A DNA stretch of 64,000 nucleotides from Cycas panzhihuaensis (taxonomy: Eukaryota; Plantae; Cycadophyta): contig CM041465.1 of NCBI GenBank assembly GCA_023213395.1, forward strand, positions 7,936,001-8,000,000. The letters are read 5' to 3'. Made by a program: the position numbers and the translations under genes. Positions within the stretch are counted from its first letter, which is position 1; each line of letters opens with the position of its first letter. Below the pieces are notes generated by a model that was not told the origin of the DNA, did not search any database, and saw only the letters and a list, made by a program, of their open reading frames with translations. Below are positions 30,351 to 35,000 of the stretch, piece after piece.

Positions 30351-31342
30351 TGTTGTTACAAACCTTCTTAAGATTAATTAAGCAAATATTCATGAAGGGA
30401 TGCTTCTAGAATAGTTATAACTTTCAAGGTTAAAAGAGGCCTATTATATACCTATAAATATGGCTTCATTGTATTGTTGGATATCATATATTTTTATAAT
30501 CAATCAATTGGTCTTTGACTATTATTTATCTTTGGGACACTTCTGTATTTCCTTCAAACTAACTGTCTCAAGTTATGGAAAAAGGTACGTAACAAGTGGT
30601 ATTAGAGTAAATAATCCAGGTACCTACTCATTGGTCTAACCACAAAGGTGTGAGAAATTCAAAGACTACCTTATCATCTCCACATATTCGTTCATGGATT
30701 TTCTGTCACAGTTTCGTGGTGTAGATGCGTTCTCTATCACTTACATGTTCCGTGGTATCACTCTTTGTACATTGTTTGTTCCATCTTTCCATGTCTATGT
30801 CACCTTCCTTTTATCTTCATTCAGTCACCACATTTGTCTTCCTACATCGTCTCTCCACTTTCTCTACATCACTGCTTGATAACCACTGTTAGAATCATAT
30901 AGCCATCACATCTCTTCATAGCTACAGCTAGAATATAAACAAATTAATGTTGCATTAATATAATTGTGTTAACGTTACATCTTTCATTCCTATTATCTCT
31001 TCCATTTTTACTTCCACCTGGTTTTAATCCATGCTTTGGCTAGTTGTGTTTCTATCTGTCTCCTTCTACGACATTTGTTACTTATACATCAGTTGTCATC
31101 TTGCCTTTGTCATCTTACCTTCATCTTGATTTTATCTTGCCTTTATTATCAATTATTATCTTGCCTTCTACTATCTTTCATTCCATCATCCTCTATTTTT
31201 TCATCCTATTTTTCGTTGCTTGGTGTGTTCTCTCCCTTCATTTCACTATTGCATCATCATTCACCATCGTCCCTCCAAAGTTATATTATATTACTATATT
31301 ACATAGTTTGCCATTACGTTAACTATACAGTTATTTCATTAA

Positions 31343-31446
31343 ATATATATATATATATATATATATATATATATATATATATATATATATATATATATAT
31401 ATATATATATATATATATATATATATATATATATATATATATATAT
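31343..31446. repeat. (TA)n microsatellite (also 34392-34440, degenerate ~37393-37410, 40382-40426)
   Basis: Directly visible; length differs between units. Confidence 0.97.
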
Positions 31447-31462
31447 TATAATGATAATAATA

Positions 31463-32028
31463 AAATACCCAAGTGTTCCAAAGATAAATAATAGTCAAAG
31501 ACCAATTGATTGATTGTAAAAATATATGATATCTAATAATATAATGAAGCCATATTTACAGGTACATAATAGGCCTCTTTTAACCTTGAAAGTTACAACT
31601 ATTCGAGAAGCATCCCTTCATGAATATTTGCTTAATTAATCTTAAGAAGGTACATACGTCAGATGATTATGATATCTTTTTATTAGCAAGAGGAGACATC
31701 AAGCTAATCGTTATCAGGTTCAAAGATGAAACATTTTAAGAAGAAGCTTTTGTTATGAACCACCTTAAATAAAGTGATTAACCAATCATCTAAATTTGTT
31801 TCATGGGCAAAACATCTTAAGAGGGAGGAATTGTTATAAACCTTCTTAAGATTAATTAAGCAAATATTCATGAAGGGATGCTTCTCAAATAGTTGCAACT
31901 TTCAAGGTTAAAAAAGGCCTATTATATACCTATAAATATGGATTCATTATATTGTTAGATATCATATATTTTTACAATCAATCAATTGGTCTTTGACTAT
32001 TATTTATCTTTAGTGCACTTGTGTATTT
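31463..32028. repeat. Inverted repeat: ~189-bp arms (31463-31651 and 31840-32028) with ~188-bp spacer; repeated at ~34461-35026, 37454-38018, 40451-41016, 44889-45420
   Basis: AAAGATAAATAATAGTCAAAGACCAATTGATTGATTGTAAAAATATATGATATC… is the reverse complement of …GATATCATATATTTTTACAATCAATCAATTGGTCTTTGACTATTATTTATCTTT. Confidence 0.95.
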
Positions 32029-35000
32029 CCTACAAACTGACTGTCTCAAGTTACAGAATAGGGTACATAACACCTGTCATCATGTAATAGCATGTTGAAG
32101 ATGCAGAATAATCACCAACTATATGGCATCTCAGATTGAAGGAGGCATAGTTGTTAAAGTTGAAAGCTTTATGTAAGCTCATCATTGAATATAGTACACA
32201 ATTTCAAAGCGCATGTAAATGAAGGAGATGTTAAACCCAATTATTATTAAGTATCATATTTTCTAGACATTAGGGTTGATTTTATAGGTGTGGTAATTAC
32301 ATGGAGATCATAAACATAGTTATGTTCATCTATTAAGGAGCCATAGCTTACAGAGGCATTAATAGACAAAGTTAACCTAGATGTTAGTTGTTGATGAGCA
32401 CATTGCAAGGTATGGAATTAACATACATAAATCATAATCACAAAGGCCTCTGTAGTTAACCAGTCTTATTCCACCTAAATTTGGATTGAATATTGGGTAA
32501 ACTACTAGAAAGAGATGTTCCTTAGATGTAGTCAAAGTAGATAGAATCCTCTACCTTTTGCGGTGAAGAAATTTGGCACATTTCTATTCTGAGTGACCTC
32601 TGTTAACTATCATATAAAGATGGCCACCTGCCATAGAGAATAAATAAAGAATGAGTGATTGTTAATTCATAGATATTTCCCAACTTTGCATGTAAATTTA
32701 TATGGAGACTACATGAATGGAGAAGAAGAATGGATAAAATCCTACACGATGGTTGTCCATAGGGCCTTCATAAAGCATTATTACATCATCTAAAGTTTGC
32801 CCAACAATGAAGATGGAAGATGCCTAATGCTCTGCATAACAGCTAATGAAGGTACCTATAAAAGAAAGGCATGAACTCCCCCTACAGTAAGAAAAAATTT
32901 TAGCCATCAAATAATCATCCATGCTACCTCTACCAAACTTCGAGATCGATTCCTCTATGCAAATCAAATGAGAATGTTTCCACTGCCTCGCCTAAGGTTC
33001 TGACCTAAATGCCCTTTTGTCTTCACTTATTTTTAGAATTAAATTAAATTAAAGTGTATAAGGTTGGTTGAGTCCATTGGTATGTTAGGGTATTTGCTGA
33101 GAATACAAGGTCCCAACCCTTAGATCACCACCAAGATCTAACCTATTCTTGCAACTGGTTACAAAAATTGAAACTAAAGATTACATGCAAGTTCTTAAAC
33201 CAAAGATAAAATAAATAAATTGAACAAGAAAGCTAAGCACATAAATACACCCAATATAACATGGTAAAACCCTAGCAGTGTGCTAGGGAAACATCCATAT
33301 AAGAAAGGTATCGATCTTTATTGTCATAGAATAGAGAAAATATACATAATCCTATAGTAGAGTGCTCACAGCAACAACAACCAGCCTCCTAACTCCTCAC
33401 AGTACATTGAACAACCTCAACATAATGAAATATTCCCTAAATCATACTATATGAGAGAGTTATACAAGGCACAAATCTAGACCATAGAATCTAGGGTATT
33501 TCTATTGGATGACCTTGATTCTCTTTACAATTTAATATAGTTTCCAGTGCTAATTTTTTGGGTCAGGGGCTATTTCCCCCGAACCCCCTCTTAGCAGGGG
33601 GCATTCCATGCCCCTCGCACCCCCCTAGCCAAGGGAGGTGAGAGTAAATAATTAGGGGACCTACTCATTGATCTAACCATAAAGGCATGAGAAATTCAAG
33701 GACTACCTTATCATCTCCTCATATTCGTTCATGCAGTTTCTGTCACTGTTTCATGGTGTGGTTGTGTTCTCCATCACTGACATGTTCTATGATATCACTC
33801 TTTGTACATTGTTTGTTCCATCTTTCCATGTATGTGTCACCTTCCTTTTGTCTTCATTCATTCACCATGTTTGTCTTCCTGCATCGTCTCTCCACTTTCT
33901 CTACATGGTTGGTTAACAACCACTGTCAAAATCACATAGCCATCACATCTCTTCATAGCTACGGCTAGAATACAAATAAATTAATTTTGCATTAATATAA
34001 TTGTGTTAAGGTTGTATCTTTCATTCATGTCATCTCTCCCAATTTTACTTCTATCTGGTTTTAATCCATGCTTTAGATAGTTATGTTTCTATCTGTCTCC
34101 TTCTACGATATTTGTTGCTTCCACACCAGTCGTCATCTCACCTTCGTCATCTTACCTTTGTCATCTTACCTTCATCTTGATTTCATCTTGCTTTATTGTC
34201 AGTCATTATCTTGCCTTCTACTATCTTTCATTCCATTATCCTCTGTTTTGTCATCCTATTTTTTGTTGCTTGGTGTGTTCCCTCCCTTCATTTCACTATT
34301 GAGTCATCATTCACCATCATCCCTCCAAAGTTATATTATATTACTATATTACATAGTTCATCATTACGTTAACTATATAGTTATTTTATTAATATATATA
34401 TATATATATATATATATATATATATATATATATATATATAAATAAATAATAATAATAATAAAATACCCAAGTGTTCCAAAGATAAATAATAGTCAAAGAC
34501 CAATTAATTGATTGTAAAAATATATGATATCTAATAATATAATGAAGCCATATTTATAGGTACATAATAGGTCTCTTTTAACCTTGAAAGTTACAACTAT
34601 TCAAGAAACATCCCTTCATGAATATTTGCTTAATTAATCTTAAGAAGGTACATACGTCAAATTATTATGATATCCATTTATTAGTAAGAGGAGACATCAA
34701 GCTAATCGTTATCAGGTTCAAAGATGAAACATTTTAAGAAGAAGCTTTTGTTATGAAACACCTTAAATAAAGTGATTAACGAATCATTTGAATTTGTTTA
34801 ATGGGCAAAACATCTTAAGAGGGAGAAATTGTTACAAACCTTCTTAAGATTAATTAAGCAAATATTAATGAAGGGACGCTTCTCGAATAGTTGCAACTTT
34901 CAAGGTTAAAAGAGGCCTATTATATACCTATAAATATGGATTCATTATATTGTTGGATATCATATATTTTTACAATCAATCAATTGGTCTTTGACTATTA

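What the first reader, a model, noticed from the sequence alone, without database searches (positions are those of the whole stretch)
30354..32072. TRIM-like element carrying an inverted copy of its own LTR: a built-in hairpin
Seen: nt ~9-197 of the 241-bp LTR are present inverted at 31463-31651, next to a (TA)n tract. A transcript would fold into a ~189-bp stem with the 3' LTR (or the 5' LTR). The arm shares diagnostic bases with the 5' LTR (ATGGCTTCATT, TTTGG.ACAC) rather than the adjacent 3' LTR (ATGGATTCATT, TTTAGTGCAC), suggesting it was copied from the 5' LTR or another copy. Known: long inverted repeats are DCL substrates and can silence TE families in trans (e.g. Mu killer). Inference: a natural 'killer' locus for this LTR family or a proto-MIRNA.
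Basis: partly seen in the sequence, partly recalled or inferred. Interest (0 to 1): 0.78.

Follow-up and report, generated by a model that had tools for sequence, protein, structure and literature searches.

The report
Five-fold repeated retrotransposon hairpin relic
A broken retrotransposon carries a backwards 189-base copy of its end repeat, and that piece is repeated five times in a row; it is likely an old repair accident now decaying, and would matter only if it makes silencing RNAs, which is untested.

Summary
The structure is real: a 1719-bp non-coding LTR element (241-bp LTRs, primer site, purine tract, 4/5 target duplication) holds LTR nt 9-197 inverted at 31463-31651, beside (TA)51. 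The '5' LTR origin' fails: the arm is 94.2% identical to each LTR, and the main 'diagnostic' base is the family's common state. Family contigs from three coded species break off at the arm's two ends, so the inversion is likely local. Units differ by 6.4-8.4%, mostly at CG/CHG; stems show no compensation, strand bias or extra conservation. Best reading: a deletion patched with an inverted LTR copy at a TA tract, then tandemly amplified, now a methylated relic. A Mu-killer-like role is untested and possible. It fails a published TRIM size limit and is not an LTR-sharing tandem.

The parts
30349..30353 (+). left target-site duplication (CTTGT; right copy CCTGT at 32073-32077, 4 of 5 match)
   Evidence: two listed contigs align from exactly 32073 and run on without LTR, i.e. 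host-sequence relatives lacking the element (records 10 and 26)
30354..30594 (+). single 5' LTR, 241 bp, TATA-like TATAAAT at LTR nt 100-106
30597..30607 (+). primer-binding-site-like motif (tRNA-Met type; label recalled)
   Evidence: LTR-PBS-UTR joint seen in one contig of run X3
30603..33640 (+). array unit U1 (3038 bp)
30608..31343 (+). CT-rich 5'UTR-like internal region, no Pfam match in 6 frames
31344..31462 (.). (TA)51 plus short AAT-rich tract; length differs among units, TA run lost in U3, region deleted in U5
31463..31651 (-). inverted arm 1 = LTR nt 9-197
31652..31831 (+). hairpin loop: 3' end of the family's internal region ending in the polypurine tract
   Evidence: family contigs continue upstream of 31652 in non-arm sequence
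31832..32072 (+). 3' LTR copy 1 (nt 9-197 = 31840-32028 pair with the arm)
32073..33640 (+). downstream host flank captured in every unit; ends in a GC-rich repeat
33641..36638 (+). array unit U2; arm 34461-34649, 3' LTR 34830-35070
36639..39630 (+). array unit U3; arm about 37453-37641, 3' LTR 37822-38062
39631..42642 (+). array unit U4; arm 40451-40639, 3' LTR 40820-41060
42643..47049 (+). array unit U5; shortened arm about 44890-45061, 3' LTR 45242-45483; continues into unique right flank after 47049
42916..44890 (-). 1975-bp foreign piece in U5 replacing ~0.6 kb including the TA tract; 98.5% identical to 54175-56149 in opposite orientation

Best explanation
This is a non-coding LTR retroelement holding an inverted 189-bp copy of its LTR, repeated five times in tandem with its flank; the inverted copy is likely a one-off repair patch, and the locus is likely a methylated relic decaying without selection on the predicted hairpin. 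Steps: (1) shown: an LTR element inserted here (LTRs, PBS, PPT, TSD). (2) inferred: a break at the (TA)n/(AAT)n tract removed the coding middle and was repaired by two template switches, copying LTR nt 197-9 backwards from a close sibling or the parent element, then rejoining the family's internal 3' end at 31652. (3) inferred: with its 3' U3-R tied in a stem it could no longer be reverse-transcribed, so it stayed local. (4) shown: the piece from just after the PBS to 1.57 kb beyond the 3' LTR was duplicated head to tail to five units, including one two-unit duplication (U1U2 to U3U4). (5) shown: the units then diverged 6-8%, mostly by C-to-T/G-to-A at CG and CHG; inferred cause is long DNA methylation. 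Any small RNA made would most likely keep this locus silent rather than serve as a selected family-wide silencer.
For: Array and boundaries. Single origin of the arm before amplification: arms group together (bootstrap 70 for all five over nt 9-180; 84 for four over nt 9-197), 3' LTRs group apart (48; 89). Arm equidistant from both LTRs. All 11 copies share non-majority bases at nt 82 and 129, while at nt 95 four of five arms keep the family-majority base that all six LTRs lack: close sibling or parent as donor. The arm lacks LTR nt 1-8, so its end is not an integrase joint. Family contigs leave the stretch at 31463 and 31651/31652; 0 of 25 listed pieces bridge the arm-loop joint and no joint is listed. 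Neutral decay: 23 of 97 stem G/C columns vary against 26.7 expected from context rates outside the stem; C>T 11 of 47 vs G>A 12 of 50; arm-LTR differences within a unit 9.4 vs between units 8.8 (my means of the matrix). Dimer step: U2+U4 share 24 and U1+U3 18 minority sites, the other 8 pairs 4-8. Template switching with 2-5 bp microhomology giving mixed deletions, inversions and tandem gains is the MMBIR model (PMC2621351, passages).
Against: The raw stem variability is lower than outside (23 of 97 vs 270 of 777, Fisher p 0.03) before context correction, and the tests have little power. All five stems still pair over 172-189 nt with unbroken runs of 36-102 bp, enough for dicing. TATA-like boxes survive in all six LTRs and four of five arms. 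Only 25 of about 1716 contig pieces were shown and about half of each DNA run was read, so rare dispersed inverted copies are not excluded. Microhomologies at the arm ends (ACATA, AATA) are suggestive only. No parent element with gag-pol was recovered, so 'deleted coding middle' is inferred.
Confidence: 0.68

Rival explanations
1. The locus is, or once was, a Mu-killer-like silencer: the 5' LTR or an upstream 3' LTR drives a transcript through arm, loop and LTR; the hairpin is diced into 21-24-nt RNAs that methylate the promoters of the LTR family in trans, and five-fold amplification raised the dose.
For: Stable predicted hairpins in all five units, -260 to -311 kcal/mol on either strand. The stem spans the LTR's TATA region. 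The family is dispersed: 661, 507 and 545 contigs were laid on the 267-bp arm/loop stretch in three DNA runs. Precedent: Muk (10.1101/2020.01.09.900282, passages); endoIR-siRNA class (PMC10827316, passages).
Against: No compensation, no G-U-tolerant strand bias, no context-corrected conservation. Most family contigs are under 95% alike to the stretch (476 of 661 in X1), which weakens present-day targeting. The surroundings are decayed nested repeats with CpG o/e 0.15 and CHG o/e 0.43.
Confidence: 0.15
2. The arm is what remains of a second family member that inserted backwards into the first element, trimmed later by deletions on both sides.
For: Arm looks like a sibling rather than either LTR. 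Nested insertions are common in this window. 3 of 24 listed DNA pieces match through 31656, so some sibling LTR starts fit five bases further.
Against: No intact LTR terminus or TSD at either arm end; those five bases also belong to the loop in unrearranged family copies; needs one insertion plus two deletions.
Confidence: 0.12
3. The internal inverted LTR copy is a built-in part of a mobile subfamily (akin to the internal complementary region of DIRS elements) and is needed for its replication.
For: Position just upstream of the 3' repeat resembles the DIRS layout (PMC3266345, passages).
Against: Direct LTRs, PBS, PPT and TSD are present, all unlike DIRS1; family contigs do not carry the joint among those listed; no second independent insertion in the window.
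Confidence: 0.04

Closest known systems
Mu killer (Muk), maize (10.1101/2020.01.09.900282, passages)
   Same: A rearranged derivative of a transposon with an inverted duplication able to form a long hairpin homologous to the family's terminal promoter repeat.
   Different: Here an LTR retroelement, five copies in tandem, old and 6-8% diverged; transcription, 21-22-nt RNAs and trans silencing, which define Muk, are untested.
Endogenous inverted-repeat siRNA loci, endoIR (PMC10827316, passages)
   Same: Long imperfect non-coding fold-back of 172-189 bp.
   Different: No siRNA data; no Rfam family at gathering score in the 64-kb window.
TRIMs and tandem-array TRIMs (PMC4717578, passages and section 28)
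   Same: Short LTRs, PBS, PPT, 5-bp TSD, no detectable protein; tandem and even inverted TRIM arrangements are reported there.
   Different: 1719 bp exceeds the <1500-bp limit; no second independent copy with this structure; array units carry host flank and do not alternate LTR/internal inside one TSD pair.
Tandem LTR retrotransposons sharing internal LTRs (PMC11899658, abstract and Discussion)
   Same: Head-to-tail repeats of an LTR element from a single insertion.
   Different: Unit joint lies just after the PBS and 1.57 kb outside the 3' LTR, so this is a segmental tandem duplication, not LTR-LTR recombination.
DIRS1-like elements with internal complementary regions (PMC3266345, passages)
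   Same: Internal sequence complementary to the terminal repeat near the 3' end.
   Different: DIRS1 has inverted termini, short ICRs matching the tips and no TSD; this has direct LTRs, a TSD, and an arm lacking the tips.

Membership tests
TRIM (criteria of PMC4717578) | element under 1500 bp | tested here: not met
   30354-32072 = 1719 bp; criterion. Without the 189-bp arm and 102-bp TA run it would be 1428 bp.
TRIM (criteria of PMC4717578) | two complete copies, or one plus a solo LTR, with different TSDs | tested here: inconclusive
   No other copy in the window; LTR family dispersed in contigs, but no genome is held.
TRIM (criteria of PMC4717578) | no retrotransposon protein | tested here: met
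   No retroelement Pfam match in 9 internal-region frames (one sub-threshold Ac76 hit) nor in 5 loop copies; a weak test on decayed DNA.
non-autonomous LTR retrotransposon | direct LTRs with TG..CA ends, PBS, PPT, 4-6-bp TSD | tested here: met
   features recalled as the standard definition
LTR-sharing tandem (TA-TRIM / tandem LTR-RT) | alternating LTR and internal region, whole array flanked by one TSD pair | tested here: not met
   Each unit includes 1.57 kb of flank with the right TSD copy; the joint is outside any LTR; definition.
Mu-killer-like locus / endoIR | long inverted repeat homologous to a TE family | tested here: met
Mu-killer-like locus / endoIR | transcribed as a hairpin | not testable with these tools
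   No raw RNA reads were offered for this species.
Mu-killer-like locus / endoIR | 21-24-nt RNAs restricted to the arms | not testable with these tools
   The run index uses 31-letter words; no small-RNA run was offered.
Mu-killer-like locus / endoIR | heritable silencing of other copies in trans | not testable with these tools
   Needs genetics or family-wide methylation and age data.
DIRS1-like | inverted terminal repeats | tested here: not met
   Terminal repeats are direct; definition.
DIRS1-like | no target-site duplication | tested here: not met
   4-of-5 TSD present.
known MIRNA / Rfam RNA | match to a curated family | tested here: not met
   0 matches at gathering score among 4227 families.

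The most novel reading that the evidence does not exclude
A retrotransposon turned into its own family's silencer and was then amplified five-fold: a natural tandem battery of LTR-promoter hairpins, an LTR-retrotransposon counterpart of Mu killer with a built-in dose increase, whose birth ended the family's activity.
Probability: 0.12. Interest if true: 0.75.

Novelty: new variant of a known kind. Interest (0 to 1): 0.3.

Why it matters
If it only decays, it is a tidy example of how TA tracts, template switching and tandem duplication make long inverted repeats out of dead retroelements in a repeat-packed genome. If it is diced, it would be a rare natural hairpin silencer of an LTR family, and five copies with their own diagnostic bases make that directly testable by assigning small RNAs to arm versus LTR and to each unit.

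Tried and rejected
No whole genome is held, so copy number, LTR ages and a genome-wide joint search were not possible. Run search: no RNA holder listed among 24 runs; this says nothing on expression. Run X24 (RNA by guess) gave 1 contig, on 31652-31707 with 7 differences, continuing upstream in non-arm sequence: a relative, not this locus; no verdict on expression. No contig was listed across the arm-TA joint or shown across the unit joint; holes prove nothing. Summed contig depth was not used as copy number. Pfam on 21 frames of flanks, UTR and loop gave one sub-threshold hit, Ac76 E 0.008, and 0 of 5 loop copies matched; my impression that the loop is a decayed Ty3/gypsy pol end is recalled and untested, so the superfamily stays open. 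A homology search with a nearby ORF (20240-20740) gave 4 proteins, one named from strawberry at 56% identity: too distant to place the organism; 'plant' rests on CG plus CHG depletion and element anatomy. Rfam: 0. Earlier scan notes: none. A first unit alignment mis-aligned U5's insertion; its UTR, arm and U5 distances were dropped and redone piecewise, leaving out 30878-31478. Rejected: assembly duplication (units differ 6.4-8.4%); copy from the 5' LTR; DIRS-type ICR; LTR-sharing tandem. No absolute age is given because the lineage and rate are unknown.

Full report
Observation. The element spans 30354-32072: two 241-bp direct LTRs with TG..CA ends, a PBS-like site at 30597, a purine tract before 31832 and flanks CTTGT/CCTGT. 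LTR nt 9-197 occur inverted at 31463-31651, 94.18% identical to each LTR, E 6.65e-79. (TA)51 lies at 31344-31445. The stretch 31455-32035 folds into one long stem, -291.6 kcal/mol, 0 of 100 shuffles as stable. Two listed contigs from other samples align from exactly 32073 and run on without LTR (records 10 and 26), which supports the insertion boundary.

Self-comparison shows five head-to-tail units: U1 30603-33640, U2 33641-36638, U3 36639-39630, U4 39631-42642, U5 42643-47049. Each has the UTR-like region, an AT tract (U1-U4), the inverted arm, loop, 3' LTR and 1.57 kb of downstream flank. There is one 5' LTR. The unit joint links a GC-rich repeat to the base just after the PBS with at most one filler base. 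Units differ by 6.4-8.4% over 2434 columns, so this is no assembly duplication; U1+U3 share 18 and U2+U4 share 24 minority sites against 4-8 for the other eight pairs, pointing to a two-unit duplication. U5 carries a 1975-bp foreign piece that replaced about 0.6 kb including the TA tract. All five hairpins still fold at -260 to -311 kcal/mol, with 3-12 mismatches and paired runs of 36-102 bp.

Origin of the arm. Mean differences over 189 nt are 12.75 (5' LTR to arms I1-I4), 13.8 (3' LTRs to arms) and 12.6 (5' to 3' LTRs): three about equal branches. Arms group together and 3' LTRs group together in trees with moderate support (70 and 48 with all 11 copies; 84 and 89 leaving out the short arm 5), so the inversion arose once, before amplification. 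Family contigs act as an outgroup (positions mapped): at nt 111 no other base reached 15%, so the 3' LTR changed, not the others. At nt 82 and 129 all 11 copies differ from the family majority (88-95% and 69-95% of depth), tying the arm to this sub-lineage. At nt 95 four of five arms keep the majority base that all six LTRs lack. The simplest donor is a close sibling or the parent element; recurrent G-to-A change could also give the nt 95 pattern.

Local or family-wide. On 31446-31712, 661, 507 and 545 contigs were laid from runs of coded organisms A, B and C. Listed loose ends cluster at the arm's ends: at 31652 (23, 17, 16 contigs) continuing in other internal sequence, at 31651 (7) continuing as a normal LTR start and purine tract, at 31463 (11 and 7) continuing as a normal LTR. 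No joint was listed, and 0 of 25 listed pieces bridge 31651/31652; 1691 pieces and 122 loose-end rows were not shown. So ordinary members lack the inversion; rare carriers are not excluded. The arm lacks the LTR's first 8 bases, unlike an integrase joint. Three of 24 listed DNA pieces match five bases into the loop (to 31656), which would give a 5-nt microhomology if the donor had that start; at the other end the arm's AATA resembles the AAT tract. This fits template-switch repair (PMC2621351, passages); the step is inferred.

Selection on the hairpin. Across the five units, variable columns are mostly C/T or G/A; outside the stem 74 of 97 CG, 69 of 115 CHG and 127 of 565 CHH columns vary, the pattern expected from long CG/CHG methylation (established knowledge). 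In the stem 23 of 97 vary, fewer than outside (270 of 777, p 0.03), but 26.7 are expected once context is allowed for, and CHH alone gives p 0.49. Changes tolerated as G-U on the plus strand (11 of 47) equal those tolerated on the minus strand (12 of 50). Arms are no closer to their own unit's LTR (mean 9.4) than to other units' (8.8) (from the matrix). These tests are small and cannot exclude weak or past function, and siRNA sources need not be conserved base by base.

How it most likely works. An LTR element lost its middle in a break at the TA tract and was patched with a backwards LTR copy (inferred). A transcript from the 5' LTR would fold its 3' U3-R into a stem, likely blocking reverse transcription (inferred). 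A later tandem duplication, then unequal exchange, made five units (array shown; route inferred). 5'-3' LTR divergence is 8.5% (mean 20.6 of 241) against 5.6% among 3' LTR copies (mean 13.6 of 241), so amplification followed insertion. The locus is now likely silent heterochromatin. The functional rival, a Mu-killer-like source, keeps about 15%: promoter motifs and long stems survive, but transcription and small RNAs could not be tested.

Known kinds. It works like, at most, Muk or an endoIR locus (10.1101/2020.01.09.900282 and PMC10827316, passages); membership needs RNA evidence. It fails the TRIM size limit (PMC4717578, passages and section 28), is not an LTR-sharing tandem (PMC11899658, abstract and Discussion) and is not DIRS-like (PMC3266345, passages). 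Six searches listed no title or abstract opening that describes a tandemly amplified LTR hairpin; I saw only listings for papers not named above, read no supplements, and the library lacks most subscription journals.

Verdict. Structure real and larger than reported; origin from the 5' LTR not supported; function unshown, with neutral-looking decay. Interest 0.3.

Noticed in passing
42916-44890 and 54175-56149: Two 1975-bp copies, 98.5% identical, in opposite orientation 9.3 kb apart, each with TG..CA ends, no TSD, and a PBS-like site inside (43345 minus, 55720 plus). The one in U5 replaced the TA tract region, a second, younger rearrangement at the same tract.
   Followed up: partly
47038-47058: The array's right breakpoint falls in a small GC-rich palindrome; the internal unit joints carry bases resembling its reverse complement.
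   Followed up: no
33031-33640 and copies: The last 600 bp of each unit belong to a far more abundant repeat than the rest of the unit, by contigs laid.
   Followed up: no
31463-31651, 31840-32028: Only 10 of 97 G/C columns in the stems are CG or CHG context against 212 of 777 outside; could be LTR composition or earlier, heavier decay.
   Followed up: no
31559: Arm 1 alone has lost the TATA-like box (LTR nt 101); arms 2-5 keep it, giving potential promoters that face the 5' LTR across the UTR.
   Followed up: no
5891-6198/9063-9370; 12426-13128/28716-29402; 17889-19499/23786-25433; 48782-49077/56881-57179: Further direct-repeat pairs at 81-88% identity, likely LTR pairs of old nested elements; the window has no ORF over 188 aa and CpG o/e 0.15.
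   Followed up: no
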